Source: a virus (lineage: Duplodnaviria; Heunggongvirae; Uroviricota; Caudoviricetes). Taken from it: 64,000 nt of DNA. A program made the position numbers and the translations under genes. The notes beneath the pieces were generated by a model that ran no database searches, had not been told where the DNA came from, and saw nothing but the letters and a program-made list of their open reading frames with translations. The stretch is from IMG/VR virus record IMGVR_UViG_2718217789_000006; one strand, given 5' to 3'. Positions 3,274 to 54,759 of this stretch are shown piece after piece (within the stretch, counting starts at the first letter, position 1; the number at the start of each line of letters is the position of its first letter).

Positions 3274-5866
3274 TCTGGTTATTGATTTGAGTCTGGATGC
3301 GGCCCGGTTTGATGAACAGATGGCCCGGGTACGCCGTCATTTTTCCAGTCTGGAGGCGGATGCCAGAAAAACCGCCAGTACTGTTGAACAGGGGCTGAGC
3401 CGACAGGCGCTGGCGGCACAAAAAGCCGGGATATCAGTCGGACAGTATAAGGCTGCCATGCGCACACTGCCCGCACAGTTCACGGATATTGTCACTCAGC
3501 TTGCCGGTGGTCAGAATCCCTTCCTTATCATGCTGCAGCAGGGGGGGCAGATCAGCGATTCATTCGGTGGACCGCTCAGCCTGCTTACCCTGCTGAAGGA
3601 GGAACTTCTCGGGATCAGGGATGCCTCTGAATCATCAGAGGAGTCGCTGTCAGATACGGCAAATGCACTGGCTGAAAATGCCCGGAATGCCGGTGAGCTG
3701 GGACGATTTATGTCGGTGGCCCGTGTGGCGGCAGGTGGCGGGGTTGCCGTACTGGCCGCGCTTGCTGCCGCCGCCTGGCAGGCAGAGCAGGCTGACCGGG
3801 CCTTATTGCGTTCACTGATCCTGACCGGAGGGGCGGCTGCCACCACAACGGCAGAATTGTGGAAAATGGCCGGGGTGATCAGCGATGAAGCCGGTGGTGG
3901 TATCAGACAGGCGGCAGAAAATCTGGCCCGTCTGGCAGAAAGCGGGAAATATACCGCCGGGCAGCTACGGATCATGGGGGAAACCTCTCAGAGATGGCTG
4001 CAGACGGTGGGGGACGATGCCGGGAAGGTGGAAAAAGCCTTTGAAGGGATTGCAGCAGATCTGGTGAAGGCGCTGGCCTCCCTGAATCAGCAGTATAACT
4101 TCCTGAGCGTTTCCCAGTTACGCCATATTGATGAGCTTGAGCGCACGAAAGGTAAACAGGTTGCGGTGACGGAGGCGATGTCCCTGTTTGCGGATGTCAT
4201 GAATGCACGTCTGGAGCAACTTGATAAAGCGGCCACGCCGGTGGAAAAAATCTGGGACGATGTTAAAACCTGGACTTCTGACGCATGGGCATGGATAGGT
4301 GATCATACACTGGGGGCACTCAGTCTGATCACTGACGTGGTGGCCGGAACCGTTGAACAAGTGAAGCTGCTGCTTGTGCAGGGGGATCTGGCGCTGGCTG
4401 AATTTATTCAGTCAGCCTGGGAAACGACAAAGAATGTGCCCGGCGTTGGTGCGTTGTTTGGTGAACTGGCAGAAGAGAACCGCGTATTTATTGAGAAAAC
4501 AAAACGCGATGAACTGGCGCTGAGAAAATCCATTGCGGAACGGGATGCGCGTATACGCCAGGGGGAAATGGGGTACATCAACCGCTCGCGTGCAACAGGC
4601 GTCAGCAAAGGTCCGGGGCAGCAGGAAGCCGTCAGCCGTCTGGCTGAAGAGCTGACAGGTAAAAAGCATACATCACCGAAAACGCGCTCTGCCGGGGAGA
4701 GGGAAGAGGAGCAGGCAAGAGAGGCTCTGCTTGCCCTTGAAGCTGAGCTCAGGACGCTGGAAAAACACAGCGGTGCGAATGAGAAAATCAGCCGGCAGCG
4801 CCGTGATTTATGGAAGGCGGAAAGTCAGTATGCGGTCCTGAAAGAGGCTGCCACGAAACGACAGTTATCTGAGCAGGAAAAATCCCTGCTGGCGCATAAA
4901 GACGAGACGCTGGAGTACAAACGCCAGCTGGCTGAGCTGGGCGACAAGGTTGAATACCAGAAACGCCTGAATGAGCTGGCACAGCAGGCGGTGCGGTTTG
5001 AAGAGCAGCAGAGCGCGAAGCAGGCCGCCATCAGCGCAAAAGCCCGCGGTCTCACTGACCGTCAGGCGCAGCGGGAGTCTGAAGCGCAGCGTCTTCGGGA
5101 CGTGTACGGTGATAATCCGGCTGCGCTGGCGAAGGCCACATCGGCACTGAAGAACACCAGGTCTGCGGAGGAGCAGCTTCGTGGAAGCTGGATGGCCGGG
5201 CTGAAGTCCGGCTGGGGCGAGTGGGCGGAAAGTGCGACGGACAGTTTTTCGCAGGTTAAAAGTGCTGCCACGCAGACCTTTGACGGTATTGCACAGAATA
5301 TGGCGGCGATGCTGACCGGTGCAGAGGCAGACTGGCGGGGATTCACCCGTTCGGTGCTGTCCATGATGACAGAAATCCTGCTTAAACAGGCCATGGTGGG
5401 CATTGTCGGGCGTATCGGCAGCGCCATTGGCGGTGCTTTCGGTGGTGGTGCATCTGCTTCCTCGGGGACGGCCATTCAGGCTGCGGCGGCGAACTTCCAT
5501 TTCGCGACCGGAGGATTTACGGGGACGGGCGGCAAATATGAGCCTGCGGGGATAGTTCACCGCGGGGAGTTTGTTTTCACGAAAGAGGCAACCAGCCGGA
5601 TAGGTGTGGGGAATCTTTACCGTCTGATGCGCGGCTATGCGGAAGGTGGTTATGTGGGTGGTGCCGGAAGTCCGGCGCAGATGCGGCGGGCGGAAGGTAT
5701 TAATTTTAATCAGAACAATCACGTGGTGATTCAGAACGACGGCACCAACGGACAGGCGGGGCCGCAGCTGATGAAGGCGGTGTATGACATGGCCCGCAAG
5801 GGGGCGCAGGATGAGCTCCGGCTGCAGTTGCGTGATGGCGGTATGTTATCGGGGAGCGGGCGATGA
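3254..5866 (+). CDS. H: Tail tape measure protein H
   Basis: 870 aa; N- and C-terminal regions (…LSRQALAAQKAGISVGQYKAAMRTLPAQFTD…; …AMVGIVGRIGSAIGG…HFATGGFTGTGGKYEPAGIVHRGEFVFTKEATSRIG…) match lambda gpH as recalled; GGAGG RBS; overlaps end of T. Confidence 0.9.
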   Translation: MSQPAGDLVIDLSLDAARFDEQMARVRRHFSSLEADARKTASTVEQGLSRQALAAQKAGISVGQYKAAMRTLPAQFTDIVTQLAGGQNPFLIMLQQGGQISDSFGGPLSLLTLLKEELLGIRDASESSEESLSDTANALAENARNAGELGRFMSVARVAAGGGVAVLAALAAAAWQAEQADRALLRSLILTGGAAATTTAELWKMAGVISDEAGGGIRQAAENLARLAESGKYTAGQLRIMGETSQRWLQTVGDDAGKVEKAFEGIAADLVKALASLNQQYNFLSVSQLRHIDELERTKGKQVAVTEAMSLFADVMNARLEQLDKAATPVEKIWDDVKTWTSDAWAWIGDHTLGALSLITDVVAGTVEQVKLLLVQGDLALAEFIQSAWETTKNVPGVGALFGELAEENRVFIEKTKRDELALRKSIAERDARIRQGEMGYINRSRATGVSKGPGQQEAVSRLAEELTGKKHTSPKTRSAGEREEEQAREALLALEAELRTLEKHSGANEKISRQRRDLWKAESQYAVLKEAATKRQLSEQEKSLLAHKDETLEYKRQLAELGDKVEYQKRLNELAQQAVRFEEQQSAKQAAISAKARGLTDRQAQRESEAQRLRDVYGDNPAALAKATSALKNTRSAEEQLRGSWMAGLKSGWGEWAESATDSFSQVKSAATQTFDGIAQNMAAMLTGAEADWRGFTRSVLSMMTEILLKQAMVGIVGRIGSAIGGAFGGGASASSGTAIQAAAANFHFATGGFTGTGGKYEPAGIVHRGEFVFTKEATSRIGVGNLYRLMRGYAEGGYVGGAGSPAQMRRAEGINFNQNNHVVIQNDGTNGQAGPQLMKAVYDMARKGAQDELRLQLRDGGMLSGSGR

Positions 5867-6192
5867 AAACCTTTCGCTGGAAAGTGAAGCCGGATATGGA
5901 GGTGAACTCGCAGCCATCGGTGCGTGAAGTGCGTTTTGGTGACGGGTACTCACAGCGTATGGCGGCAGGGCTGAATGCTGACCTGAAAACATACCGTGTG
6001 ACGCTTTCCGTGACCCGGGAGGAGGCCCGGCATCTGGAAGCGTTCCTGGCAGAGCACGGAGGCTGGAAGGCATTTTTGTGGAAGCCACCCTATGCATACC
6101 GGCAGATAAAGGTGACCTGTGCCGGGTGGTCTGCGCGGGTCGGGATGTTGCGCGTTGAGTTCAGCGCGGAGTTTAAGCAGGTGGTGAACTGA
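5863..6192 (+). CDS. M: Minor tail protein M
   Basis: 109 aa, MKTFRWKVKP...YRVTLSV...KVTCAGWSARVGMLRVEFSAEFKQVVN, lambda gpM-like. Confidence 0.9.
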   Translation: MKTFRWKVKPDMEVNSQPSVREVRFGDGYSQRMAAGLNADLKTYRVTLSVTREEARHLEAFLAEHGGWKAFLWKPPYAYRQIKVTCAGWSARVGMLRVEFSAEFKQVVN

Positions 6193-6890
6193 TGCAGGAT
6201 ATTCACGGGGAAAGCCTGATCGAGTCGGTTAAATCAGAGCAGTCACCGCGGGTGGTGCTCTGGGAAATCGACCTGACGGTGCAGGGTGGTGAGCGGTATT
6301 TTTTCTGCAATGAGCTGAATGAAAAAGGGGAGGCGGTTACCTGGCAGGGGCGGGAATATCAGGCATACCCGATTGACGGCAGCGGTTTTGAGATGAACGG
6401 GAAGGGCAGCAGTGCCCGCCCGTCGCTGACGGTGTCGAATCTGTTCGGTCTGGTCACCGGAATGGCGGAGGACCTGCAGAGCCTGGTGGGGGCCACGGTG
6501 GTCCGCCGCCGGGTGTATGCCCGTTTTCTGGATGCGGTGAATTTTGTGGCGGGCAATCCGGAAGCGGACCCGGAGCAGGAGCTGAGCGACCGCTGGGTGG
6601 TGGAGCAGATGTCAGAGCTGACGGCCATGACAGCCTCGTTTGTGCTGGCAACACCGACGGAGACGGACGGAGCGCTGTTTCCCGGTCGCATTATGCTGGC
6701 GAATACCTGTATGTGGGATTACCGGGGAGATGAATGCGGGTATAACGGTCCTGCGGTGGCGGATGAGTTCGACAACCCCACCACGGATATCCGTAAGGAC
6801 AGATGCAGCAAGTGCATGCGCGGGTGTGAGATGCGCGGCATGGTGGCTAATTTTGGCGGTTTCCTTTCCATCAATAAACTTTCGCAGTAA
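6192..6890 (+). CDS. L: Minor tail protein L
   Basis: 232 aa, ...VVLWEIDLT...GERYFFCNE...FPGRIMLANTCMWDYRGDECGY...FGGFLSINKLSQ, lambda gpL-like. Confidence 0.9.
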   Translation: MQDIHGESLIESVKSEQSPRVVLWEIDLTVQGGERYFFCNELNEKGEAVTWQGREYQAYPIDGSGFEMNGKGSSARPSLTVSNLFGLVTGMAEDLQSLVGATVVRRRVYARFLDAVNFVAGNPEADPEQELSDRWVVEQMSELTAMTASFVLATPTETDGALFPGRIMLANTCMWDYRGDECGYNGPAVADEFDNPTTDIRKDRCSKCMRGCEMRGMVANFGGFLSINKLSQ

Positions 6891-6900
6891 ATCCTGTTTT

Positions 6901-7644
6901 ATGACACAGACTGAATCAGCGATTCTGGTGCATGCCCGGCGGTGTGCGCCTGCGGAGTCGTGCGGCTTCGTGATAGGCACCCCGGAGGGCGAACGGTACC
7001 AGCCCTGCGTGAATATCTCCGCAGAGCCGGAGGCGTATTTTCGTATTGCGCCGGAAGACTGGCTGCAGGCAGAGATGCAGGGGGAGATTGTGGCGCTGGT
7101 TCACAGCCACCCTGGTGGTCTGCCCTGGCTGAGCGAGGCCGACCGGCGGCTGCAGATAAAGAGTGCCCTGCCCTGGTGGCTGGTCTGCCGGGGGGAAATT
7201 CATAAATTCCGCTGTGTGCCGCACCTGACCGGGCGTCGTTTTGAGCACGGGGTGACGGACTGTTACACCCTGTTCCGGGATGCATACCATCTGGCGGGGA
7301 TAACGCTGCCGGATTTTGAGCGTGAGGATGACTGGTGGCGCAACGGTCAGAACCTTTACCTGGACAATATGGCGGCGACTGGTTTTTACCGGGTGCCCCT
7401 GTCCTCTGCACAGGCGGGCGATATCCTGCTGTGCTGCTTTGGCGCATCGGTGGCCAATCATGCCGCCATATACTGCGGCAACGGTGAACTGCTTCACCAT
7501 CTGCCTGAACAACTGAGTAAACGGGAGAGGTATTCTGAAAAATGGCAACGACGAACGCATTCTGTCTGGCGTCACCGCCACTGGCACGCATCTGCCTTCA
7601 CGGGGATTTGCAACGATTTGGCCGCCGCCTCAGCCTGTACGTGA
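6901..7644 (+). CDS. K: Tail assembly protein K (JAB/MPN plus NlpC/P60-like domains)
   Basis: Starts at ATG 6901 (MTQTESAILVHARRCAPAESCGFV...HSHPGG...); the ORF-track start at 6640 is an upstream in-frame extension overlapping L and is rejected. Confidence 0.9.
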   Translation: MTQTESAILVHARRCAPAESCGFVIGTPEGERYQPCVNISAEPEAYFRIAPEDWLQAEMQGEIVALVHSHPGGLPWLSEADRRLQIKSALPWWLVCRGEIHKFRCVPHLTGRRFEHGVTDCYTLFRDAYHLAGITLPDFEREDDWWRNGQNLYLDNMAATGFYRVPLSSAQAGDILLCCFGASVANHAAIYCGNGELLHHLPEQLSKRERYSEKWQRRTHSVWRHRHWHASAFTGICNDLAAASACT

Positions 7645-8219
7645 ACACGGCAGCGGAAGCCATCCGTGCCCTGTCGCTGCAGATGCCGGGATTCCGCCGT
7701 CAGATGAACGAAGGCTGGTACCAGATACGTATTCGCGGTGAGGACACGGCACCGGAGGCGGTGTACGCCCGTCTTCACGAACCTCTGGGTGAGGGGGCGG
7801 TCATCCATATTGTGCCGCGACTGGCCGGAGCCGGAAAGGGCGGACTGCAGATTGTGCTGGGGGCAGCAGCCATCGTGGGCTCTTTCTTCACCGCCGGCGC
7901 AACGATGGCGTTGTGGGGCGCAGCCCTGAGTGCCGGAGGGCTGACTGCCACCACGATGCTGTTCTCACTGGGTGCCAGCATGATACTGGGCGGTGTGGCC
8001 CAGATGCTGGCACCGAAGGCAAAAACACCGGAGTACAGGGCGACGGATAACGGTAAACAGAACACGTATTTTTCGTCACTGGATAACATGATTGCCCAGG
8101 GGAACCCGATGCCGGTGCCTTATGGTGAAATGCTGGTTGGTTCACGACGGATATCCCAGGACATCAGCACCCGTGATGAGGGCGGAGACGGGAAAGTGGT
8201 GGTTATCGGGCGGGGATGA
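7542..8219 (+). CDS. I: Tail assembly protein I
   Basis: 225 aa, ...ICLHGDLQRFGRR...AVIHIVPRLAGAGKGG...GKQNTYFSSLDNMIAQGNPMPVPYGEM..., lambda gpI-like; overlaps 3' end of K. Confidence 0.85.
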   Translation: MATTNAFCLASPPLARICLHGDLQRFGRRLSLYVNTAAEAIRALSLQMPGFRRQMNEGWYQIRIRGEDTAPEAVYARLHEPLGEGAVIHIVPRLAGAGKGGLQIVLGAAAIVGSFFTAGATMALWGAALSAGGLTATTMLFSLGASMILGGVAQMLAPKAKTPEYRATDNGKQNTYFSSLDNMIAQGNPMPVPYGEMLVGSRRISQDISTRDEGGDGKVVVIGRG

Positions 8220-8264
8220 AAATAAAAAAATCCCGCAGAGTTAGCGGAGCTGCGGGAGAGAACG

Positions 8265-8384
8265 ATGAAGATTAACGTTATGGAGTTATTTTTCAGGCAT
8301 CAAAAAAGTAATGCAGCGTCATTATTGCGGCTACAGGCAATTGCCGGAAATGTGAAGAGTTTCAGAAATTTTATTCCGTCATGA
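8265..8384 (+). CDS. Hypothetical 39-aa protein in an AT-rich insert between I and J
   Basis: ATG with GGGAGAG upstream; MKINVMELFFRHQKSNAASLLRLQAIAGNVKSFRNFIPS; bracketed by two GC-rich hairpins; no homology recognised. Confidence 0.25.
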   Translation: MKINVMELFFRHQKSNAASLLRLQAIAGNVKSFRNFIPS

Positions 8385-8459
8385 CACAGGCACCCTCCGG
8401 GGTGCCTGTTGTTTTCTGGCATAAACAGATTCAGACATCAGACAGGAGAGGGGGACAGA

Positions 8460-21011: not shown

Positions 21012-21179
21012 TCAGGTACAGCGATACTTTTTTTTTACCGGGAGGCATTCACCAGAAATTTTTTGCTCGTCTCTTGCCTGGAGGCAGGATTCTTTACTGG
21101 CATAAATTCCGGTAATCACATTCTGTGATTCACCCGTTATAAGAAAAACCGTCATCATCAGTGCAAATGCTGAAGTCAT
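21012..21179 (-). CDS. YdfD-like small protein with hydrophobic N-terminus
   Basis: 55 aa (below ORF-track cutoff), MTSAFALMMTVFLITGESQNVITG...; start overlaps the dicB stop (ATGA); position matches ydfD after dicB in Qin. Confidence 0.45.
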   Translation of the reverse strand: MTSAFALMMTVFLITGESQNVITGIYASKESCLQARDEQKISGECLPVKKKYRCT

Positions 21180-21364
21180 TGACGTTCTCCGAAAATACCA
21201 AGTTCAAGAAGAGCAATTCGGGAAAGTATGGAATTATCATTGAGCAGATAAGGCTCATATTTCCTCATATTAATGGCATCTTCAGTAAACTCCCGGTTAC
21301 TGAGCAGAACACCAATATCAAAACAACCTTCAGACGTATTAACGTTTGGTAATAACGTTTCCAT
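21176..21364 (-). CDS. dicB: DicB-like cell division inhibitor
   Basis: 62 aa, METLLPNVNTSEGCFDIGVLLSNREFTEDAIN...; same length and N-terminus as K-12 DicB as recalled. Confidence 0.7.
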   Translation of the reverse strand: METLLPNVNTSEGCFDIGVLLSNREFTEDAINMRKYEPYLLNDNSILSRIALLELGIFGERQ

Positions 21365-21542
21365 TATCGCGTCCTCAACAATGAATTTTGTGATGCAGTG
21401 CCTGGTGCCTCCAGGTGACGTTAACCAGTTAACAATTAACGCCGGATTAGTTGATGCTCGTTACGCCCGTAAAATACCGCCTTACTGCTTTAACTGTTCC
21501 GCGTGCGCATAGCCGCATTCACCGCATCACAAAATTCACTTT

Positions 21543-21582
21543 AAAAAGGGCGGATATCCGTTTCCGCCGAATCACCAGAAAA
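21543..21582 (-). ncRNA. dicF: DicF-like small RNA (variant)
   Basis: Minus-strand UUUCUGGUGAUUCGGCGGAAACGGAUAUCCGCCCUUUUU: DicF-type 5' seed (UUUCUGGUGA) plus terminator hairpin and U-run, followed by UAAAGUGAAUUUUGUGAUG as downstream of K-12 dicF (recalled); lies between ydfC-like gene and dicB. Confidence 0.5.
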
Positions 21583-21883
21583 GTGATAACAGAGGGCGTT
21601 GCAGCGGGGTTGTCACTTAAGCGTATGGTCAACCTGACAACCCGGTGTCCTCAGCGGGGAAGGAATAACCCCGCCATACTTACCGCCGCGCCATTTCGCG
21701 GATTGCCACAACCGGAAGCGCACGGTCGAATTAAATTTAACGACTACCTACAGAGAGACGAACTTCGCCGTGCGCTTTCGCGTTATGCCCTGACTTTTCA
21801 GGGATATATCCTTTTCAGTAAACTGTCAGTGCCGGATTCTTATCCGTGTCCGGCGCACGCACTCTACCTCACCTGTGAATAAA

Positions 21884-22258
21884 TTAATGATTAATTGATA
21901 TTTTGTTGTTTGATTCAACTTTCCCATCGGATGTGTGATGCTTTAAATCACAGGAATTAATACTGCTTGCTGTAAAATGATTTTCAAGGGGAGCTATTCG
22001 AATCCCTTTCTTTTTCATTAACAAGCCAAATCCTTTATTAATGATGTTCATTAATTCCAGGAAGTATTTTTCATGTAAATTCTGGTTATCAGAGAGCTGC
22101 TTCTCTTCGCACAGACCGATAAAGGCACGACGCACGTTACCGGATATAGTATCGATGGTTTCTTTTTCTACGGTACTCAGGTCAAGAGTCGCCAGTTGGG
22201 AACGAACTATATTCGCTGCCATTTCCTGGAATTGCATTGGTAAATCTTTAAATTCCAT
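21884..22258 (-). CDS. Hypothetical 124-aa protein (AT-rich insertion in the dicB operon)
   Basis: GAGG RBS 7 nt upstream; start 22 nt after the ydfC-like stop; MEFKDLPMQFQEMAANIVRSQLATLDLS...; low GC versus flanks; no family recognised. Confidence 0.5.
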   Translation of the reverse strand: MEFKDLPMQFQEMAANIVRSQLATLDLSTVEKETIDTISGNVRRAFIGLCEEKQLSDNQNLHEKYFLELMNIINKGFGLLMKKKGIRIAPLENHFTASSINSCDLKHHTSDGKVESNNKISINH

Positions 22259-22280
22259 TATTAGCCTCGTTGGTTAGCTA

Positions 22281-22499
22281 TTAACGCGGGTATGTAATCA
22301 TTCTGGCAATGCTTAATGCCGCTGCTTTTTCCAGATTAGTGATATCCTGCTCCAGAGCGGACAGATTTTCAGCCTGCTTAGCCCTGGCTTCATTGGCCCA
22401 TTTCAGATCCTGCGCTGCATTAATTTTCTGGTGCATCCACTCATAAAGTTCATCATCGGTATAGTCTGGCGCGATGATGACGGGTTCTCGTTTCTGCAT
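22281..22499 (-). CDS. YdfC-like protein
   Basis: 72 aa (same length as K-12 YdfC), MQKREPVIIAPDYTDDELYEWMHQKINAAQ...; position in the dicB-type operon. Confidence 0.5.
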   Translation of the reverse strand: MQKREPVIIAPDYTDDELYEWMHQKINAAQDLKWANEARAKQAENLSALEQDITNLEKAAALSIARMITYPR

Positions 22500-22528
22500 A
22501 CTGATTCCTCGCGGTGCTGTTTCGCTTA

Positions 22529-22657
22529 TCAGCCGTTAGATTTTGCCGAACTGGAAAGCGCCTGTTTAAATTCGTTGAAGCTGAGAGCTTCTTCGCCTTC
22601 GGCAAGACCTTCGAAGTATTCTTCGTAAGCCTTTTCCATGATTGTGTCGAAATCCAT
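22529..22657 (-). CDS. YdfB-like small protein
   Basis: 42 aa (below ORF-track cutoff), MDFDTIMEKAYEEYFEGLAEGEEALSFNEFKQALSSSAKSNG; AGGTGAG RBS; same length and position as K-12 YdfB. Confidence 0.45.
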   Translation of the reverse strand: MDFDTIMEKAYEEYFEGLAEGEEALSFNEFKQALSSSAKSNG

Positions 22658-22658
22658 A

Positions 22659-22814
22659 TCACTCACCTGAGTTTCTTTCCAGCCAGCGACGGGCACCATT
22701 TTCGGTTTTAAACGTTTTGCTTTTGGTATACGTCATCGCGGTGAACGTACCGTCCTGGTTGGGGAACACGCCACATACCAGAGATTCGCTGTTGCCAAGA
22801 TCGATAGTATCCAT
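22659..22814 (-). CDS. YdfA-like small protein
   Basis: 51 aa from internal ATG with GAGG RBS (MDTIDLGNSESLVCGVFPNQDGTFTAMTYTKSKTFKTENGARRWLERNSGE); stop overlaps ydfB-like start. Confidence 0.5.
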   Translation of the reverse strand: MDTIDLGNSESLVCGVFPNQDGTFTAMTYTKSKTFKTENGARRWLERNSGE

Positions 22815-23000
22815 GCTGACCTCATTTCCCCTTAACGCCGGGGTAGCGGAACAAAAACCTGCTGCATAGTTATTAAAGTTGAACCCTGCCGTCATGTTCT
22901 TACGCCTCGGGCTGGCTACTTAACCCCTGACCACTGCCTGGTAACTCGAAGTATTGCCCTGCATTCTGTGGGGCGGGGTGGGTTGGTATGAAAAGAAGGA

Positions 23001-23037
23001 TACCCATAGGTATTTAAAAAGTAAATACCCATGGGTA
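23001..23037. promoter_or_regulatory. Pair of 12-bp palindromic operator-like sites between repressor gene and dicB-type operon
   Basis: TACCCATAGGTA (23001..23012) and TACCCATGGGTA (23026..23037), perfect palindromes 25 bp centre-to-centre, upstream of the ydfA-like gene. Confidence 0.45.
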
Positions 23038-23079
23038 AATTTTTGCGGTGTCTTAACTGGTGACTAGTTGTTTGGTGAG

Positions 23080-23499
23080 CTATGATGCGTTTTGTGCTTT
23101 CTTTTTACGGATTTCTTCGTAGATCATATTGTAATACTGTTTTTTCTCTTCAAGAGTTTTTAATAATTTATCCGCTTCACTTTCTGGCAGTTCGTCTAAG
23201 AGATCTAAAAAAATACGTTGTCGTGGCGTTAGAACCCTTGTTTCATAACTGGAGGCTGTGTTCGTTGATGATGAAACGATACCATCCATCCATCCCCGGG
23301 GTAACCCAAAGGACTCTTCGATAATCTCCACCATATCATCAGCGATCCGTTTTTTTCCCTTTTTCCCCTCTGGGTACAACATTCTTGATACATAAGAAGG
23401 CTCGCGCCCGATCTTTCTGGCCACGTTAACCGCTTTACCATCGCATTTCTCATCACGAATTTTGATGAGTTGCTGTCGTCTAAATTCATATTTGTCCAT
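23080..23499 (-). CDS. Prophage repressor (DicA/RacR/CI-type HTH protein)
   Basis: 139 aa; HTH-like ...AVNVARKIGREPSYVSRML...; C-terminal ...LDELPESEADKLL... resembles DicA ...ALPESEQD...; divergent from a Cro-like gene. Confidence 0.7.
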   Translation of the reverse strand: MDKYEFRRQQLIKIRDEKCDGKAVNVARKIGREPSYVSRMLYPEGKKGKKRIADDMVEIIEESFGLPRGWMDGIVSSSTNTASSYETRVLTPRQRIFLDLLDELPESEADKLLKTLEEKKQYYNMIYEEIRKKKAQNAS

Positions 23500-23580
23500 A
23501 GGTAAATAATAGATGCGATTACCGCAAGGTAAACAACCTGTGGGTATTGGCTTTTGTTTACCTGTGGGTATTCTTTGCTG
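23500..23580. promoter_or_regulatory. Divergent promoter/operator region between repressor and Cro-like gene
   Basis: CCATAGGTA half-site and two direct copies of CCTGTGGGTATT (reverse complement TACCCACAGG, a one-base variant of the palindrome core at 23001..23037). Confidence 0.4.
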
Positions 23581-23599
23581 TGTTTACTAAGGAGTAGCT

Positions 23600-23881
23600 A
23601 TGGAAGAATTAAGAATATTTCTCAATTCTCTTTCGTCAGATGAACAGCGTATGTTTGCATGCGAGTGTGGTACCAGCATCGGTTATCTAAGAAAGGCATT
23701 GAGTAAAGGTCAAGTGTTAGGGGCATCGTTATGTGTCCTTATTGAGCGAGCCAGTAATGGTGAAGTTACACGTCAGCAACTAAGGCCTTTTGATTGGATG
23801 AATATTTGGCCCGAGCTGGAAGATACCAAAACGTTAACACAACCACTTTCTAGGAGCTTGATTCATGAAAATCAAGCATGA
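23600..23881 (+). CDS. Cro/YdaS-like HTH regulator
   Basis: 93 aa, ...MFACECGTSIGYLRKALSKGQ...; divergent from the repressor, AGGAG RBS. Confidence 0.6.
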   Translation: MEELRIFLNSLSSDEQRMFACECGTSIGYLRKALSKGQVLGASLCVLIERASNGEVTRQQLRPFDWMNIWPELEDTKTLTQPLSRSLIHENQA

Positions 23882-24290
23882 ACACATCCGCATGGCGATG
23901 AATGCCTGGGCGCGTCCTGATGGCGAAAAAGTTCCAGCAGCTGGAATAACCCAGGCTTATTTTGAGTTGGGTATGACGTTCCCAGAACTGTATGACGACA
24001 GCCATCCGGAAGCCCTGGCTCGCAATACCCAGAAAATTTTCCGCTGGGTAGAGAAAGACACCCCTGATGCTGTTGAAAAAATGCAGGCTCTGTTACCGGC
24101 GATCGAAAAGGCGATGCCGCCTTTGCTGGTGGCCCGTATGCGCAGCCACAGTTCTGAATATTACCGTGAGATCGTCGAACGGAGGGATCGGCTGGTGAAG
24201 GATGTCGATGATTTTGTTGCGTCAGCGGTTGTTTTGTATGACCAGATGAATCGCGGCGGCCCGGCAGGGAATGCTGTGGTGATGCACTAA
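23865..24290 (+). CDS. YdaT-like regulatory protein
   Basis: 141 aa following the Cro-like gene with short overlap, as ydaS-ydaT in Rac-type immunity regions; assignment by position and general resemblance. Confidence 0.45.
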   Translation: MKIKHEHIRMAMNAWARPDGEKVPAAGITQAYFELGMTFPELYDDSHPEALARNTQKIFRWVEKDTPDAVEKMQALLPAIEKAMPPLLVARMRSHSSEYYREIVERRDRLVKDVDDFVASAVVLYDQMNRGGPAGNAVVMH

Positions 24291-49520: not shown

Positions 49521-52166
49521 ATGGCAGGTAATTTTGCCGATCTGACAGCCGTGCTGACACTGGATTCTGCCCGTTTTTCTGAAGAGGCAGCGCGGGTAAA
49601 AAAAGAGCTGGGTGAAACCAGTGCGCTTGCTGATTTGATGTCCGGGAAAGTCAGTCAGTCTTTCAGAAAACAGGCTGATGCTGCTGAGCAGAGTCTGAGC
49701 CGACAGGCGCTGGCGGCACAAAAAGCCGGGATATCAGTCGGACAGTATAAGGCTGCCATGCGCACACTGCCCGCACAGTTCACGGATATTGTCACTCAGC
49801 TTGCCGGTGGTCAGAATCCCTTCCTTATCATGCTGCAGCAGGGGGGGCAGATCAGCGATTCATTCGGTGGACCGCTCAGCCTGCTTACCCTGCTGAAGGA
49901 GGAACTTCTCGGGATCAGGGATGCCTCTGAATCATCAGAGGAGTCGCTGTCAGATACGGCAAATGCACTGGCTGAAAATGCCCGGAATGCCGGTGAGCTG
50001 GGACGATTTATGTCGGTGGCCCGTGTGGCGGCAGGTGGCGGGGTTGCCGTACTGGCCGCGCTTGCTGCCGCCGCCTGGCAGGCAGAGCAGGCTGACCGGG
50101 CCTTATTGCGTTCACTGATCCTGACCGGAGGGGCGGCTGCCACCACAACGGCAGAATTGTGGAAAATGGCCGGGGTGATCAGCGATGAAGCCGGTGGTGG
50201 TATCAGACAGGCGGCAGAAAATCTGGCCCGTCTGGCAGAAAGCGGGAAATATACCGCCGGGCAGCTACGGATCATGGGGGAAACCTCTCAGAGATGGCTG
50301 CAGACGGTGGGGGACGATGCCGGGAAGGTGGAAAAAGCCTTTGAAGGGATTGCAGCAGATCCGGTGAAGGCGCTGGCCTCCCTGAATCAGCAGTATAACT
50401 TCCTGAGCGTTTCCCAGTTACGCCATATTGATGAGCTTGAGCGCACGAAAGGTAAACAGGCTGCGGTGACGGAGGCGATGTCCCTGTTTGCGGATGTCAT
50501 GAATGCACGTCTGGAGCAACTTGATAAAGCGGCCACGCCGGTGGAAAAAATCTGGGACGATGTTAAAACCTGGACTTCTGACGCATGGGCATGGATAGGT
50601 GATCATACACTGGGGGCACTCAGTCTGATCACTGACGTGGTGGCCGGAACCGTTGAACAGGTGAAGCTGCTGCTTGTGCAGGGGGATCTGGCGCTGGCTG
50701 AATTTATTCAGTCAGCCTGGGAAACGACAAAGAATGTGCCCGGCGTTGGTGCGTTGTTTGGTGAACTGGCAGAAGAGAACCGCGTATTTATTGAGAAAAC
50801 AAAACGCGATGAACTGGCGCTGAGAAAATCCATTGCGGAACGGGATGCGCGTATACGCCAGGGGGAAATGGGGTACATCAACCGCTCGCGTGCAACAGGC
50901 GTCAGCAAAGGTCCTGGGCAGCAGGAAGCCGTCAGCCGTCTGGCTGAAGAGCTGACAGGTAAAAAGTATACATCACCGAAAACGCGCTCTGCCGGGGAGA
51001 GGGAAGAGGAGCAGGCAAGAGAGGCTCTGCTTGCCCTTGAAGCTGAGCTCAGGACGCTGGAAAAACACAGCGGTGCGAATGAGAAAATTAGCCGGCAGCG
51101 CCGTGATTTATGGAAGGCGGAAAGTCAGTATGCGGTCCTGAAAGAGGCTGCCACGAAACGGCAGTTATCCGGGCAGGAAAAATCCCTGCTGGCCCATGAG
51201 AAAGAGACGCTGGAGTACAAACGCCAGCTGGCTGAGCTGGGCGACAAGGTTGAATACCAGAAACGCCTGAATGAGCTGGCACAGCAGGCGGTGCGGTTTG
51301 AAGAGCAGCAGAGCGCGAAGCAGGCCGCCATCAGCGCAAAAGCCCGCGGTCTCACTGACCGTCAGGCGCAGCGGGAGTCTGAAGCGCAGCGTCTTCGGGA
51401 CGTGTACGGTGATAATCCGCAGGCGCTGGCCCGGGTCACCGGGGCACTGAAACAGACATGGGCGGATGAAGACATGCTGCGCGGTGACTGGCTGGCCGGG
51501 CTGAAGTCCGGCTGGGGGGAGTGGGCGGAAAGTGCGACGGACAGTTTTTCGCAGGTTAAAAGTGCTGCCACGCAGACCTTTGACGGTATTGCACAGAATA
51601 TGGCGGCGATGCTGACCGGTGCAGAGGCAGACTGGCGGGGATTCACCCGTTCGGTGCTGTCCATGATGACAGAAATCCTGCTTAAACAGGCCATGGTGGG
51701 CATTGTCGGGCGTATCGGCAGCGCCATTGGCGGTGCTTTCGGTGGTGGTGCATCTGCTTCCTCGGGGACGGCCATTGAGGCTGCGGCGGCGAACTTCCAT
51801 TTCGCGACCGGAGGATTTACGGGGACGGGCGGCAAATATGAGCCTGCGGGGATAGTTCACCGCGGGGAGTTTGTTTTCACGAAAGAGGCAACCAGCCGGA
51901 TAGGTGTGGGGAATCTTTACCGTCTGATGCGCGGCTATGCGGAAGGTGGTTATGTGGGTGGTGCCGGAAGTCCGGCGCAGATGCGGCGGGCGGAAGGTAT
52001 TAATTTTAATCAGAACAATCACGTGGTGATTCAGAACGACGGTATCAACGGACAGGCGGGGCCGCAGCTGATGAAGGCGGTGTATGACATGGCCCGCAAG
52101 GGGGCGCAGGATGAGCTCCGGCTGCAGTTGCGTGATGGCGGTATGTTATCAGGGAGCGGGCGATGA
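49521..52166 (+). CDS. H: Tail tape measure protein H
   Basis: ATG 49521 with AGGAGGTG RBS; N-terminal ~60 aa differ from copy A, remainder near-identical. Confidence 0.9.
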   Translation: MAGNFADLTAVLTLDSARFSEEAARVKKELGETSALADLMSGKVSQSFRKQADAAEQSLSRQALAAQKAGISVGQYKAAMRTLPAQFTDIVTQLAGGQNPFLIMLQQGGQISDSFGGPLSLLTLLKEELLGIRDASESSEESLSDTANALAENARNAGELGRFMSVARVAAGGGVAVLAALAAAAWQAEQADRALLRSLILTGGAAATTTAELWKMAGVISDEAGGGIRQAAENLARLAESGKYTAGQLRIMGETSQRWLQTVGDDAGKVEKAFEGIAADPVKALASLNQQYNFLSVSQLRHIDELERTKGKQAAVTEAMSLFADVMNARLEQLDKAATPVEKIWDDVKTWTSDAWAWIGDHTLGALSLITDVVAGTVEQVKLLLVQGDLALAEFIQSAWETTKNVPGVGALFGELAEENRVFIEKTKRDELALRKSIAERDARIRQGEMGYINRSRATGVSKGPGQQEAVSRLAEELTGKKYTSPKTRSAGEREEEQAREALLALEAELRTLEKHSGANEKISRQRRDLWKAESQYAVLKEAATKRQLSGQEKSLLAHEKETLEYKRQLAELGDKVEYQKRLNELAQQAVRFEEQQSAKQAAISAKARGLTDRQAQRESEAQRLRDVYGDNPQALARVTGALKQTWADEDMLRGDWLAGLKSGWGEWAESATDSFSQVKSAATQTFDGIAQNMAAMLTGAEADWRGFTRSVLSMMTEILLKQAMVGIVGRIGSAIGGAFGGGASASSGTAIEAAAANFHFATGGFTGTGGKYEPAGIVHRGEFVFTKEATSRIGVGNLYRLMRGYAEGGYVGGAGSPAQMRRAEGINFNQNNHVVIQNDGINGQAGPQLMKAVYDMARKGAQDELRLQLRDGGMLSGSGR

Positions 52167-52492
52167 AAACATTTCGCTGGAAAGTGAAGCCGGATATGGA
52201 GGTGAACTCGCAGCCATCGGTGCGTGAAGTGCGTTTTGGTGACGGGTACTCACAGCGTATGGCGGCAGGGCTGAATGCTGACCTGAAAACATACCGTGTG
52301 ACGCTTTCCGTGACCCGGGAGGAGGCCCGGCATCTGGAAGCGTTCCTGGCAGAGCACGGAGGCTGGAAGGCATTTTTGTGGAAGCCACCCTATGCATACC
52401 GGCAGATAAAGGTGACCTGTGCCGGGTGGTCTGCGCGGGTCGGGATGTTGCGCGTTGAGTTCAGCGCGGAGTTTAAGCAGGTGGTGAACTGA
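52163..52492 (+). CDS. M: Minor tail protein M
   Basis: Identical protein to 5863..6192. Confidence 0.9.
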   Translation: MKTFRWKVKPDMEVNSQPSVREVRFGDGYSQRMAAGLNADLKTYRVTLSVTREEARHLEAFLAEHGGWKAFLWKPPYAYRQIKVTCAGWSARVGMLRVEFSAEFKQVVN

Positions 52493-53190
52493 TGCAGGAT
52501 ATTCACGGGGAAAGCCTGATCGAGTCGGTTAAATCAGAGCAGTCACCGCGGGTGGTGCTCTGGGAAATCGACCTGACGGTGCAGGGTGGTGAGCGGTATT
52601 TTTTCTGCAATGAGCTGAATGAAAAAGGGGAGGCGGTTACCTGGCAGGGGCGGGAATATCAGGCATACCCGATTGACGGCAGCGGTTTTGAGATGAACGG
52701 GAAGGGCAGCAGTGCCCGCCCGTCGCTGACGGTGTCGAATCTGTTCGGTCTGGTCACCGGAATGGCGGAGGACCTGCAGAGCCTGGTGGGGGCCACGGTG
52801 GTCCGCCGCCGGGTGTATGCCCGTTTTCTGGATGCGGTGAATTTTGTGGCGGGCAATCCGGAAGCGGACCCGGAGCAGGAGCTGAGCGACCGCTGGGTGG
52901 TGGAGCAGATGTCAGAGCTGACGGCCATGACAGCCTCGTTTGTGCTGGCAACACCGACGGAGACGGACGGAGCGCTGTTTCCCGGTCGCATTATGCTGGC
53001 GAATACCTGTATGTGGGATTACCGGGGAGATGAATGCGGGTATAACGGTCCTGCGGTGGCGGATGAGTTCGACAACCCCACCACGGATATCCGTAAGGAC
53101 AGATGCAGCAAGTGCATGCGCGGGTGTGAGATGCGCGGCATGGTGGCTAATTTTGGCGGTTTCCTTTCCATCAATAAACTTTCGCAGTAA
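52492..53190 (+). CDS. L: Minor tail protein L
   Basis: Identical protein to 6192..6890. Confidence 0.9.
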   Translation: MQDIHGESLIESVKSEQSPRVVLWEIDLTVQGGERYFFCNELNEKGEAVTWQGREYQAYPIDGSGFEMNGKGSSARPSLTVSNLFGLVTGMAEDLQSLVGATVVRRRVYARFLDAVNFVAGNPEADPEQELSDRWVVEQMSELTAMTASFVLATPTETDGALFPGRIMLANTCMWDYRGDECGYNGPAVADEFDNPTTDIRKDRCSKCMRGCEMRGMVANFGGFLSINKLSQ

Positions 53191-53200
53191 ATCCTGTTTT

Positions 53201-53944
53201 ATGACACAGACTGAATCAGCGATTCTGGTGCATGCCCGGCGGTGTGCGCCTGCGGAGTCGTGCGGCTTCGTGATAGGCACCCCGGAGGGCGAACGGTACC
53301 AGCCCTGCGTGAATATCTCCGCAGAGCCGGAGGCGTATTTTCGTATTGCGCCGGAAGACTGGCTGCAGGCAGAGATGCAGGGGGAGATTGTGGCGCTGGT
53401 TCACAGCCACCCTGGTGGTCTGCCCTGGCTGAGCGAGGCCGACCGGCGGCTGCAGATAAAGAGTGCCCTGCCCTGGTGGCTGGTCTGCCGGGGGGAAATT
53501 CATAAATTCCGCTGTGTGCCGCACCTGACCGGGCGTCGTTTTGAGCACGGGGTGACGGACTGTTACACCCTGTTCCGGGATGCATACCATCTGGCGGGGA
53601 TAACGCTGCCGGATTTTGAGCGTGAGGATGACTGGTGGCGCAACGGTCAGAACCTTTACCTGGACAATATGGCGGCGACTGGTTTTTACCGGGTGCCCCT
53701 GTCCTCTGCACAGGCGGGCGATATCCTGCTGTGCTGCTTTGGCGCATCGGTGGCCAATCATGCCGCCATATACTGCGGCAACGGTGAACTGCTTCACCAT
53801 CTGCCTGAACAACTGAGTAAACGGGAGAGGTATTCTGAAAAATGGCAACGACGAACGCATTCTGTCTGGCGTCACCGCCACTGGCACGCATCTGCCTTCA
53901 CGGGGATTTGCAACGATTTGGCCGCCGCCTCAGCCTGTACGTGA
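53201..53944 (+). CDS. K: Tail assembly protein K
   Basis: Identical to 6901..7644. Confidence 0.9.
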   Translation: MTQTESAILVHARRCAPAESCGFVIGTPEGERYQPCVNISAEPEAYFRIAPEDWLQAEMQGEIVALVHSHPGGLPWLSEADRRLQIKSALPWWLVCRGEIHKFRCVPHLTGRRFEHGVTDCYTLFRDAYHLAGITLPDFEREDDWWRNGQNLYLDNMAATGFYRVPLSSAQAGDILLCCFGASVANHAAIYCGNGELLHHLPEQLSKRERYSEKWQRRTHSVWRHRHWHASAFTGICNDLAAASACT

Positions 53945-54519: not shown

Positions 54520-54759
54520 AAATAAAAAAATCCCGCAGAGTTAGCGGAGCTGCGGGAGAGAACGATGAAGATTAACGTTATGGAGTTATTTTTCAGGCAT
54601 CAAAAAAGTAATGCAGCGTCATTATTGCGGCTACAGGCAATTGCCGGAAATGTGAAGAGTTTCAGAAATTTTATTCCGTCATGACACAGGCACCCTCCGG
54701 GGTGCCTGTTGTTTTCTGGCATAAACAGATTCAGACATCAGACAGGAGAGGGGGACAGA

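What the first reader, a model, noticed from the sequence alone, without database searches (positions are those of the whole stretch)
22995..23585. Repressor gene flanked by two sets of related operator sites
Perfect palindromes TACCCATAGGTA and TACCCATGGGTA lie between the 3' end of the repressor gene and the dicB-type operon, and related CCATAGGTA / CCTGTGGGTATT sites lie in the divergent repressor-Cro intergenic region. This suggests one repressor controls both the lytic switch and the dicB-type operon, possibly with looping between the two clusters about 500 bp apart.
Basis: inference. Interest (0 to 1): 0.45.

Follow-up and report, generated by a model that had tools for sequence, protein, structure and literature searches.

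The report
Prophage repressor flanked by OL/OR operators
This is the ordinary immunity switch of a lambda-like prophage of E. coli O157:H7: a short repressor gene flanked by two sets of the same binding site (TACC-N4-GGTA), one over the cro/repressor promoters and one over the promoter of the dicB cell-division-inhibitor operon. The design is already known from lambda and from the K-12 Qin prophage.

Summary
The sites are real and far from chance. Exact TACC-N4-GGTA occurs 5 times in 64 kb (0.41 expected), and 4 of the 5 lie in 23001-23570.
- TACCCATAGGTA is not a perfect palindrome.
- The CCATAGGTA site over the repressor ATG is not significant on its own and is not conserved.

The layout is OL1/OL2 (23001, 23026), then the repressor (23080-23499, minus strand), then OR3/OR2/OR1 (23520, 23535, 23559), then cro.

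In 41 loci from gamma- and betaproteobacteria that encode the same N-terminal DNA-binding domain, the exact motif occurs 115 times (about 4 expected). Nearly all copies sit at -73 and -33 from the repressor ATG, or as a pair 25-26 bp apart downstream. Promoter hexamers lie in the same register as in the window.

The left operon is the Qin dicBF operon (YdfA, YdfB, YdfC 96-99% identical). The repressor joins an mEp043-like N-terminal domain to a DicA-like, non-cleavable C-terminal domain.

So one repressor controlling both arms is well supported, but it is the classical lambda and DicA design. Binding and looping remain untested. This is a new member of a known kind, of low to moderate interest.

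The parts
23001..23012 (.). OL1, TACCCATAGGTA. It is an imperfect dyad and overlaps the spacer and the first two bases of the inferred PL -10.
   Evidence: Exact motif hit. It holds the same position relative to the -10 as the promoter-proximal site in 33 related loci and mEp043.
23026..23037 (.). OL2, TACCCATGGGTA. It is a perfect 12-bp palindrome lying immediately upstream of the inferred PL -35.
   Evidence: Exact motif hit. The 25-bp start-to-start spacing to OL1 matches the 25-26 bp spacing in relatives.
22997..23025 (-). Inferred PL, the analogue of dicBp. The -35 is TTTACT (23025-23020), the spacer is 17 bp, and the -10 is TATCCT (23002-22997). Transcription runs leftward into ydfA-ydfB-ydfC-dicF-dicB.
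   Evidence: The geometry is identical to mEp043's annotated putative PL and to the conserved OL2 / -35 / OL1 / -10 register in related loci. It matches only 8 of 12 consensus positions, so the simple scan did not report it. No transcription start site data are available.
22991..23037 (-). Hairpin formed by OL2 and OL1 plus 4 flanking base pairs on each side. It has a 16-bp stem and a 5-nt loop and is followed by UCCUUCUUUU. It may act as a terminator or roadblock for the repressor transcript.
   Evidence: Terminator-like hit. RNA fold -22 to -23 kcal/mol, z = -4.9. Any such function is inference only.
23080..23499 (-). Repressor gene, 139 aa. Residues 1-72 form an HTH DNA-binding domain of the MDKYE...REPSYVSRMLY family. 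Residues 73-91 are a disordered linker. Residues 92-138 form a DicA-type helical C-terminal domain with no S24 peptidase.
   Evidence: ORF. phrog_5736, transcriptional regulator, E = 6e-70. No Pfam hit. N-terminal domain 65% identical to mEp043 cI. C-terminal domain homologous to DicA and to Tritos CI. AF2 model with mean pLDDT 85.
23493..23504 (.). Doubtful fourth site, TGTCCATAGGTA, with 2 mismatches. It overlaps the repressor ATG and the PRM +1.
   Evidence: family D1/D6. It is absent at this position in all related loci and is not significant alone (my calculation).
23506..23533 (-). Inferred PRM. The -35 is TTTACC (23533-23528), the spacer is 16 bp, and the -10 is TATTAT (23511-23506). 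The -10 ends 6 nt before the ATG and there is no Shine-Dalgarno sequence, so the repressor mRNA would be leaderless.
   Evidence: The only promoter-like hit of the scan. The same register is found in 34 loci.
23520..23531 (.). OR3, TACCGCAAGGTA. It overlaps the PRM -35.
   Evidence: Exact hit. It lies at -32 from the ATG, as in relatives (-32/-33).
23535..23546 (.). OR2, AACCTGTGGGTA, which reads TACCCACAGGTT on the repressor strand. It abuts the PR -35 and lies just upstream of the PRM -35.
   Evidence: 1-mismatch hit. The family OR2 consensus carries the same GGTT deviation and sits at -47/-48.
23559..23570 (.). OR1, TACCTGTGGGTA. It lies in the PR spacer and overlaps the PR -10.
   Evidence: Exact hit. 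It lies at -71 from the repressor ATG, against -71 to -75 in relatives.
23547..23574 (+). Inferred PR. The -35 is TTGGCT (23547-23552), the spacer is 16 bp, and the -10 is TATTCT (23569-23574). Transcription runs rightward into the cro-like gene.
   Evidence: Read directly from the sequence. The conserved TTGA... immediately after OR2 and the OR1/-10 overlap are seen in the family alignment. There is no transcription start site evidence.
23600..23881 (+). Cro-like gene, 93 aa, of the YdaS/phrog_35 type.
   Evidence: It is 73% identical to mEp043 gp51. A homologue lies divergent from the repressor in 33 of 42 loci.
21012..22895 (-). Early-left dicBF-type operon. It comprises ydfA (22662-22814, or from 22895), ydfB (22532-22657), ydfC (22281-22499), a 124-aa ORF (21884-22258), a dicF-like region (21489-21663), dicB (21176-21364) and a ydfD-like DUF1482 gene (21012-21179).
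   Evidence: RefSeq annotation of an identical O157:H7 locus. tblastn and blastn against K-12 Qin genes.

Best explanation
The region is the immunity module of a lambdoid (Qin/Rac-like) prophage of E. coli O157:H7. The 139-aa repressor probably binds as a dimer to 12-bp dyads of the form TACC-N4-GGTA.

Three sites lie in the repressor-cro intergenic region.
- OR1 sits over the PR -10 and OR2 next to the PR -35. Together they shut off cro and the rightward replication genes.
- OR3 sits over the -35 of PRM and gives negative autoregulation of a leaderless repressor mRNA.

Two sites lie directly after the repressor stop codon. OL1 sits over the -10 of PL and OL2 just upstream of its -35. Together they shut off the leftward early operon ydfABC-dicF-dicB-ydfD-exo-xis-int. 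One protein therefore silences both arms.

The repressor lacks an S24 autocleavage domain and carries a DicA-type C-terminal domain. Induction is therefore probably by an antirepressor or another non-RecA route, not by self-cleavage.

What is shown: the sites, their non-randomness, their conserved positions, and the gene identities. What is inferred: binding itself, the promoter assignments, the leaderless start, and the mode of induction.
For: - Motif enrichment: 5 exact hits against 0.41 expected, 4 of them clustered.
- Family-wide test: 41 loci were found through the N-terminal domain alone. They hold 115 exact motifs in 245.5 kb, where 4^-8 per position predicts about 4. Sixty lie in the -90 to -25 window upstream of the repressor ATG, 54 lie downstream and 1 lies elsewhere.
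- The OR alignment shows the window fitting the conserved string TTTACC-N4-GGTAA...CAATACC-N4-GGTT-ATTTACC-N4-GGTAA.
- OL pairs 25-26 bp apart enclose a TTGACx-like -35 and overlap a TAnnnT -10 in 33 loci. Many have near-consensus hexamers, such as TTGACG/TAATAT.
- The PRM register is conserved in 34 loci.
- The recognition helix REPSYVSRMLY is nearly invariant.
- mEp043 has the same layout with a homologous cI N-terminal domain and Cro.
- Six loci lack the Cro homologue but keep the motif, so the motif follows the repressor domain.
- The heteroimmune phage Tritos has the same C-terminal domain and the same ydfA leader. It carries a different motif (GTAC-based), again at both OR and OL.
- The left operon is the Qin dicBF operon.
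- Precedent: DicA represses dicBp and dicCp through operators in both intergenic regions (PMC10448788).
Against: - No binding, transcription start site or expression data exist for this locus.
- The window's own PL and PR hexamers are weak (4/6 + 4/6), and the simple promoter scan reported only PRM.
- The N-terminal domain matches no Pfam family and no solved structure by sequence. The fold matches to XRE-type HTH proteins are weak (E > 1e-3).
- The Cro-like protein co-occurs with the motif in most loci, so which protein binds which site with what affinity cannot be separated by computation.
- Many E. coli copies of this repressor are frameshifted, so some copies of the module are decaying.
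Confidence: 0.85

Rival explanations
1. The left pair is not only an operator pair. Its transcript also forms a hairpin that ends the repressor (PRM) mRNA, or repressor bound there blocks read-through. Either way the toxic dicF/dicB genes would be kept off in the lysogen even though they lie 42 bp downstream on the same strand.
For: - Terminator-like hit on the minus strand: 16-bp stem, 5-nt loop, tail TCCTTCTTTT.
- RNA fold of -22 to -23 kcal/mol, z = -4.9, with 0 of 200 shuffles folding as well.
- The complementarity extends 4 bp beyond the two sites into the spacer (I4).
- No other hairpin lies between the stop codon (23080) and OL2.
- Klebsiella relatives also have T-rich tails after OL1.
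Against: - Two similar palindromes 25 bp apart always form a hairpin, so the fold is partly a by-product.
- The stem is A/U-rich (5 G-C pairs) and the U-tract is interrupted next to the stem.
- In most relatives the tail is not T-rich, and the OL pair lies 0.4-2 kb beyond the repressor, behind other genes. In mEp043 it also lies behind a separate GC-rich terminator.
Confidence: 0.3
2. Repressor bound at OL and at OR interacts through a DNA loop of about 500 bp that tightens repression or tunes PRM.
For: - Two operator clusters lie 494-558 bp apart.
- Looping is established for lambda CI (my own knowledge). The best fold match (5d50) is the SPC32H phage repressor, described as an oligomer (my own knowledge), though this is only a weak match.
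Against: - The OL-OR distance is not conserved. OL starts +462 to about +2900 bp from the repressor ATG across relatives.
- The oligomeric state of the DicA-type C-terminal domain is unknown, and the model shows only a helical hairpin.
- For 933W, which has the same 3 + 2 layout, PMC3317979 reports that the repressor apparently does not bind adjacent sites cooperatively. My recollection of Bullwinkle & Koudelka 2011 is that its loop has no effect on PRM.
Confidence: 0.25
3. The sites are recognised mainly by the Cro-like (YdaS-type) protein or another factor, not by the 139-aa protein.
For: A Cro homologue accompanies the motif in 33 of 42 loci. In lambda-type switches Cro does share the operators.
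Against: - Six loci (Klebsiella L007, L009-L012; Orbus L036) keep the motif at the same positions without a detectable Cro homologue.
- The motif positions are fixed relative to the repressor ATG.
- The putative recognition helix of the repressor domain is nearly invariant.
- Sharing operators with Cro would not contradict the main explanation.
Confidence: 0.05
4. The similarity between the sites is chance or a by-product of AT-rich intergenic DNA.
For: Only the weak site over the ATG (23493) is compatible with chance.
Against: - 0 of 100 shuffles reached the observed count.
- 115 exact sites occur at conserved positions in 41 independent loci, against about 4 expected.
Confidence: 0.01

Closest known systems
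Qin cryptic prophage immunity locus of E. coli K-12 (dicA / dicC / dicBp-ydfABC-dicF-dicB)
   Same: - The gene order and orientation are the same: cro-like gene divergent, and the repressor followed on the same strand by ydfA-ydfB-ydfC-dicF-dicB-ydfD.
- YdfA, YdfB and YdfC are 96-99% identical and DicB 67%.
- The repressor is short (139 vs 135 aa), lacks the RecA-cleavage domain and shares the C-terminal domain (33% identity, E = 2e-7).
- Operators for one repressor lie in both intergenic regions, and DicA represses dicBp and dicCp (PMC10448788).
   Different: - The N-terminal DNA-binding domain is unrelated to DicA's (there is no alignment outside residues 89-134).
- The operator sequence is different: TACC-N4-GGTA here against TTAGC/GTTA-type repeats in Qin.
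- The paper describes three operators at each Qin promoter. Here there are two at PL.
- No Rem antirepressor homologue is present in the window.
Coliphage mEp043 immunity region (cI gp50 / cro gp51)
   Same: - The cI N-terminal domain is 65% identical and Cro is 73% identical.
- The operator motif, number and spacing are the same: OR sites spaced 25 and 15 bp, against 24 and 15 bp here, and OL sites spaced 25 bp in both.
- The overlap with the annotated putative PL is the same.
- The two are probably of the same or a closely related immunity specificity.
   Different: - mEp043 cI is 228 aa. Its record calls it 933W-CI-like, and the long relatives of this family carry an S24 peptidase domain, so it is presumably SOS-cleavable.
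- Its OL is separated from cI by an extra gene and a terminator.
- Its PL drives an N-kil-cIII-type operon, not dicBF.
- No operator experiments on mEp043 were found.
Lambda cI / OL-OR switch
   Same: - Repressor and cro are divergent around a tripartite OR.
- The same operators are reused at PL.
- OR3 lies over the PRM -35.
- The repressor mRNA starts leaderless from PRM.
- The operators overlap the -35 and -10 hexamers.
   Different: - There are two OL sites rather than three.
- The operator is a 12-bp dyad rather than 17 bp.
- There is no S24 C-terminal domain, so cooperativity, octamer looping and RecA-dependent induction are not implied.
- OL lies 42 bp after the repressor stop, rather than beyond rexAB.
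Phage 933W repressor/operators (Koudelka laboratory)
   Same: Three OR and two OL sites. The paper describes five naturally occurring sites (PMC3317979).
   Different: The 933W site is 15 bp, with a central base pair and a different half-site (positions 2-5 are G, A, A, C; PMC3317979). That is not TACC-N4-GGTA, so the specificity is different.
Non-cleavable, antirepressor-controlled phage repressors (Gifsy prophages; Salmonella phage SPC32H Rep-Ant, PDB 5d50)
   Same: Both are short two-domain repressors without S24. 5d50 is the best fold match (E = 1.6e-3, TMq 0.44-0.47). DicA, which shares the C-terminal domain, is relieved by the antirepressor Rem (PMC10448788).
   Different: The structural match is weak, and no antirepressor gene was identified in the window.

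Membership tests
Lambdoid CI/Cro immunity switch with OL and OR | Divergently transcribed repressor and cro-like genes, separated by a short region holding several copies of one dyad-symmetric site | tested here: met
   The repressor is at 23080-23499 (minus strand) and cro at 23600-23881 (plus strand). Three sites lie at 23520, 23535 and 23559.
Lambdoid CI/Cro immunity switch with OL and OR | The same site is reused at the early-left promoter | tested here: met
   OL1 and OL2 lie at 23001 and 23026. The arrangement is conserved in 33 related loci with a promoter in register.
Lambdoid CI/Cro immunity switch with OL and OR | The sites overlap the -35 and -10 hexamers of PL, PR and PRM | tested here: inconclusive
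   The geometry is conserved and PRM was found by the scan. However, the PL and PR hexamers in the window are weak and no transcription start sites are known.
Lambdoid CI/Cro immunity switch with OL and OR | The repressor binds the sites | not testable with these tools
   This needs EMSA or footprinting. Only co-occurrence of domain and motif is shown.
LexA/CI-type self-cleaving repressors (S24 peptidase C-terminal domain) | A C-terminal PF00717 domain with an Ala-Gly cleavage site | tested here: not met
   No Pfam hit. The protein is 139 aa with a helical C-terminal domain. Relatives with the same N-terminal domain do carry PF00717.
DicA-type short repressor / dicBF control module (Qin) | A DicA-like C-terminal domain | tested here: met
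   Residues 89-134 against DicA 84-129: 33% identity, E = 2e-7.
DicA-type short repressor / dicBF control module (Qin) | The repressor is immediately followed on the same strand by ydfABC-dicF-dicB | tested here: met
DicA-type short repressor / dicBF control module (Qin) | A DicA-like N-terminal HTH domain and Qin operator sequences | tested here: not met
   No N-terminal alignment to DicA. The Qin intergenic regions lack TACC-N4-GGTA.
DicA-type short repressor / dicBF control module (Qin) | A Rem antirepressor encoded by the same prophage | tested here: not met
   tblastn of Rem against the whole window found no hit at E <= 1e-3.
933W-type operators | A 15-bp site with a central base pair and a conserved G-A-A-C block at positions 2-5 | tested here: not met
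   The sites here are 12-bp dyads with TACC/GGTA ends and an even centre, as compared with PMC3317979.
Intrinsic (Rho-independent) terminator | A stable stem-loop immediately followed by a U-tract at the 3' end of a gene | tested here: inconclusive
   There is a stable 16-bp stem (-22 kcal/mol) and the scan reports a hit. But the stem is A/U-rich, the proximal U-tract is interrupted, and the hairpin is an automatic consequence of two similar palindromes.

The most novel reading that the evidence does not exclude
In this compact version of the module the OL pair does double duty. As DNA it is the operator of PL. As RNA, or as a repressor-bound roadblock, it stops the leaderless PRM transcript 42 bp after the repressor stop codon, so the toxic dicF/dicB genes stay silent. 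In addition, the DicA-type C-terminal domain lets OL- and OR-bound dimers bridge a loop of about 500 bp. More broadly, one operator specificity (TACC-N4-GGTA, with a nearly invariant recognition helix) would be shared by prophages from Xanthomonas and Neisseria to E. coli. It would be combined with either SOS-cleavable or antirepressor-controlled C-terminal domains, which would be an unusually conserved immunity type.
Probability: 0.2. Interest if true: 0.45.

Novelty: new member of a known kind. Interest (0 to 1): 0.25.

Why it matters
The finding gives a concrete, testable operator map (five sites and three promoters) for an uncharacterised immunity type. A 1.4-kb stretch spanning it (22600-24000) is at least 80% covered in 822 of 5,426 complete E. 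coli genomes, including many O157:H7 strains. This immunity type controls one of the O157:H7 copies of the dicF/dicB cell-division inhibitors.

It also shows that the DNA-binding domain and operator set form a widely conserved unit that has been recombined with two different C-terminal control domains. That bears on how this prophage is, or is not, induced by DNA damage.

It does not reveal a new regulatory principle.

Tried and rejected
- **933W equivalence.** mEp043 cI is annotated as 933W-like, so I checked the published 933W operators (PMC3317979). They are 15-bp sites with a different half-site, so this was rejected.
- **Pfam and PDB sequence search** on the repressor gave no significant hit. 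Only PHROGs named it a regulator.
- **Literature searches** for the exact site strings and for TACC-N4-GGTA-style notations found nothing relevant. One call failed on syntax. A search for mEp043 found no operator work.
- **Megablast against the phage collection** matched only the flanks, not the immunity cassette.
- **Rfam.** No DicF at the gathering threshold or at E <= 1. BLAST shows a deleted dicF variant instead.
- **Rem antirepressor.** No homologue in the window.
- **The fourth site over the ATG** was treated as unproven, because it is not conserved and is statistically weak.
- **The exact motif at 34988** lies inside a 114-aa ORF and is consistent with the 0.41 chance hits expected, so it was ignored.
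- **Helical phasing of OL against OR** was considered but not used, because the distances vary among relatives.
Full report
**What is in the sequence**

The window around 21-26 kb is the early region of a lambdoid prophage. It is 100% identical over 22600-24000 to many E. coli O157:H7 chromosomes. At least 80% of that stretch is present in 822 of 5,426 complete E. coli genomes.

RefSeq annotation of an identical locus and my ORF list give the following order:
- int, xis, exonuclease, DUF1482, dicB, a hypothetical gene, ydfC, ydfB and ydfA, all leftward;
- a 139-aa 'hypothetical protein' at 23080-23499, also leftward;
- then, rightward, a 93-aa transcriptional regulator (23600-23881), a YdaT/cII-like protein, an O-like protein and a DnaC-like protein.

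**Checking the observation**

When generalised to TACC-N4-GGTA, the motif has 5 exact matches in 64 kb, against 0.41 +/- 0.64 in dinucleotide shuffles. None of 100 shuffles reached 5. Four of the five lie at 23001, 23026, 23520 and 23559. A one-mismatch copy (AACCTGTGGGTA) lies at 23535.

Four corrections are needed:
- TACCCATAGGTA is not a perfect palindrome. Its reverse complement is TACCTATGGGTA. TACCCATGGGTA is perfect.
- The 'CCATAGGTA' site over the repressor ATG (TGTCCATAGGTA, 23493-23504) has two mismatches. By my own arithmetic such a match is expected about 0.46 times in a 110-bp spacer. It has no counterpart in any relative.
- The fifth exact hit, at 34988, lies inside an ORF and fits the chance expectation.

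**Who the proteins are**

The 139-aa protein has no Pfam match and no solved relative by sequence. It matches phrog_5736, 'transcriptional regulator', over its full length at E = 6e-70.

Residues 1-86 are 65% identical to the N-terminal part of the cI repressor of coliphage mEp043. In the large protein database the first ~72 residues (MDKYE...REPSYVSRMLY...GWMD) are 65-82% identical to hundreds of 220-242-aa 'LexA family/S24 peptidase' prophage repressors. These come from Salmonella, Edwardsiella, Yersinia, Klebsiella, Pantoea and others. Short forms of 135-140 aa without S24 occur in E. coli, Salmonella, Serratia and Yersinia.

Residues 89-134 are homologous to the C-terminal part of DicA of the K-12 Qin prophage (33% identity, E = 2e-7). 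They are much closer to the C-terminal part of the 'CI repressor' of phage Tritos.

An AlphaFold model (mean pLDDT 85) has three parts: a four-helix N-terminal domain with an HTH at 23-40, a disordered linker at 73-91, and a helical hairpin at 92-138. Foldseek finds only weak matches. The best is the Rep-Ant repressor of a Salmonella phage (5d50, E = 1.6e-3), followed by XRE-type HTH proteins.

The protein is therefore a chimera of an mEp043-type DNA-binding domain and a DicA-type, non-cleavable C-terminal domain.

The rightward 93-aa protein is 73% identical to mEp043's Cro.

The leftward genes are the Qin dicBF operon. YdfA is 96% identical, YdfB 98%, YdfC 99%, DicB 67% and YdfD 44%. The dicF region is 85% identical at the nucleotide level.

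**The decisive comparison**

mEp043 carries three TACC-N4-GGTA-type sites between cro and cI (starts spaced 25 and 15 bp), one of them ending GGTT. It carries two exact sites spaced 25 bp at the promoter its authors annotated as putative PL. The window has spacings of 24 and 15 bp at OR and 25 bp at OL.

I then searched one genome per species for the N-terminal domain alone (alignment A1; scan). This gave 41 loci from Enterobacterales, Aeromonas, Neisseria, Burkholderiales, Nitrosomonas, Xanthomonas and Stenotrophomonas. In their 245.5 kb the exact motif occurs 115 times, where about 4 are expected at 4^-8 per position.
- 60 copies lie 25-90 bp upstream of the repressor ATG, clustered at -73/-72 and -33/-32.
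- 54 lie downstream of the repressor.
- 1 lies elsewhere.

The window's sites fall at -71, -47, -32, +462 and +487, which is the same plan.

The aligned OR regions share the string TTTACC-N4-GGTAA...CAATACC-N4-GGTT-ATTTACC-N4-GGTAA, and the window fits it base for base. That includes the GGTT deviation of the middle site.

**Promoters**

Promoter assignments are inferred and rest on conserved geometry.

- *PL.* Downstream of the repressor, 33 loci have a pair of sites 25-26 bp apart. A -35-like hexamer (often TTGACx) directly follows the distal site. A TAnnnT -10 begins with the last two bases of the proximal site. In the window this gives PL = TTTACT, 17 bp, TATCCT (23025-22997, minus strand).
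- *PRM.* The -35 TTTACC is part of OR3. The -10 ends 5-7 nt before the ATG, and no Shine-Dalgarno sequence is present in 31 of 34 loci. In the window PRM = TTTACC, 16 bp, TATTAT, then 6 nt, then ATG. It is the only promoter the simple scan reported. This implies a leaderless repressor mRNA, as for lambda cI.
- *PR.* Read from the sequence as TTGGCT, 16 bp, TATTCT (23547-23574). OR1 lies over the -10 and OR2 abuts the -35.

**Further support**

Phage Tritos has the same ydfA leader and the same repressor C-terminal domain but a different N-terminal domain. It carries a different repeated motif (GTAC-based), again both between cro and cI and just before the shared ydfA leader. The operator set therefore changes with the DNA-binding domain at both places at once.

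Six loci lack a detectable homologue of the Cro protein yet keep the motif in place. The motif thus follows the repressor domain.

**Comparison with what is known**

For Qin it is published that DicA, a 135-aa repressor lacking the RecA cleavage site, represses dicBp (the PL analogue) and dicCp. Both intergenic regions hold operator sequences, and the antirepressor Rem relieves repression (PMC10448788).

The window is therefore a heteroimmune version of that module. It has the same C-terminal domain and the same controlled operon, but a different DNA-binding domain and different operators.

The 933W system shares the three-plus-two site count, but its operator is different, being 15 bp with another half-site (PMC3317979).

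I found no paper describing the TACC-N4-GGTA operator or experiments on mEp043's switch. That search covers only the held library.

**Rival and additional readings**

*Terminator or roadblock.* On the repressor strand the two left sites plus four flanking pairs form a 16-bp hairpin of -22 to -23 kcal/mol (z = -4.9), followed by UCCUUCUUUU. The repressor stop codon is only 42 bp upstream and no other hairpin intervenes. The hairpin, or repressor bound there, may therefore also stop PRM read-through into the toxic dicF/dicB genes.

The hairpin cannot be the sole explanation. In relatives the same pair lies up to about 2 kb beyond the repressor and is wrapped around consensus promoter hexamers. 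A hairpin is also automatic for two similar palindromes. I give the dual-function idea about 0.3.

*Looping.* This cannot be tested here. OL-OR distances are not conserved, and the oligomeric state of the C-terminal domain is unknown.

*Chance.* Excluded.

**Verdict**

The interpretation that one repressor controls both arms is well supported by comparative evidence. It is the classical design, already described for lambda and, for this very operon type, for DicA in Qin.

What is new is only the identity of the operator (TACC-N4-GGTA), its five-site map, and the chimeric repressor. This makes it a new member of a known kind, with interest of about 0.25.

Noticed in passing
window 3395-10709 vs 49695-57009: Two long segments of the window are near-identical at an offset of about 46,300 bp (offsets 46300, 46301, 46309 and 46391). 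The window therefore seems to span two related prophages, or a repeated prophage segment.
   Followed up: partly
window 21489-21663 (minus strand): The dicF region is 85% identical to K-12, but the DicF core carries a 19-nt internal deletion. It keeps the 5' UUUCUGGUGA and a shortened terminator stem. Rfam reports no DicF even at E <= 1, only a sub-threshold STnc100 hit at 21332-21550.
   Followed up: partly
window 23229-23489 (minus strand, alternative frame) and proteins P0007-P0019: Many E. coli database copies of this repressor begin MNLDDSNSSKFVMRN..., which is the +1-frame ORF fused to the normal C-terminal part. These are frameshifted alleles whose DNA-binding domain is destroyed, which suggests decay of the immunity module in some strains.
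   Followed up: no
window 28169-28349 (plus strand): A sok antitoxin RNA (RF01794, 61 bits, above the gathering score) indicates a hok/sok-type toxin-antitoxin locus. It lies in the same relative position as hokD in Qin.
   Followed up: no
loci L005-L045 (e.g. L029 Paraburkholderia, L031 Neisseria, L042 Xanthomonas): The repressor N-terminal domain, its nearly invariant REPSYVSRMLY helix, the Cro partner and the TACC-N4-GGTA operator layout are conserved across gamma- and betaproteobacteria. That is unusually wide for a phage immunity specificity. The C-terminal domain varies: S24 peptidase in most, short helical forms in some.
   Followed up: partly
window 22814-22895 (minus strand): The ydfA ORF can be extended to 78 aa from an ATG at 22895, while RefSeq and K-12 use the 51-aa start at 22814. 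The leader from 22896 to about 22985 (roughly 90 nt, reaching the edge of PL) is shared with phage Tritos but absent from Qin.
   Followed up: no
L001 11687-13401 (O157:H7 Z570; window about 29.3-31 kb): The same prophage carries a DNA cytosine methyltransferase, an NgoMIV-family restriction endonuclease and a QueH-like gene downstream of the replication genes.
   Followed up: no
window 23038-23050 and the OL2-upstream flanks: An A-tract (CAAAAAxTT) immediately upstream of OL2 recurs in many related loci. It could be an UP-like element of PL, or the tail of a terminator on the opposite strand.
   Followed up: no
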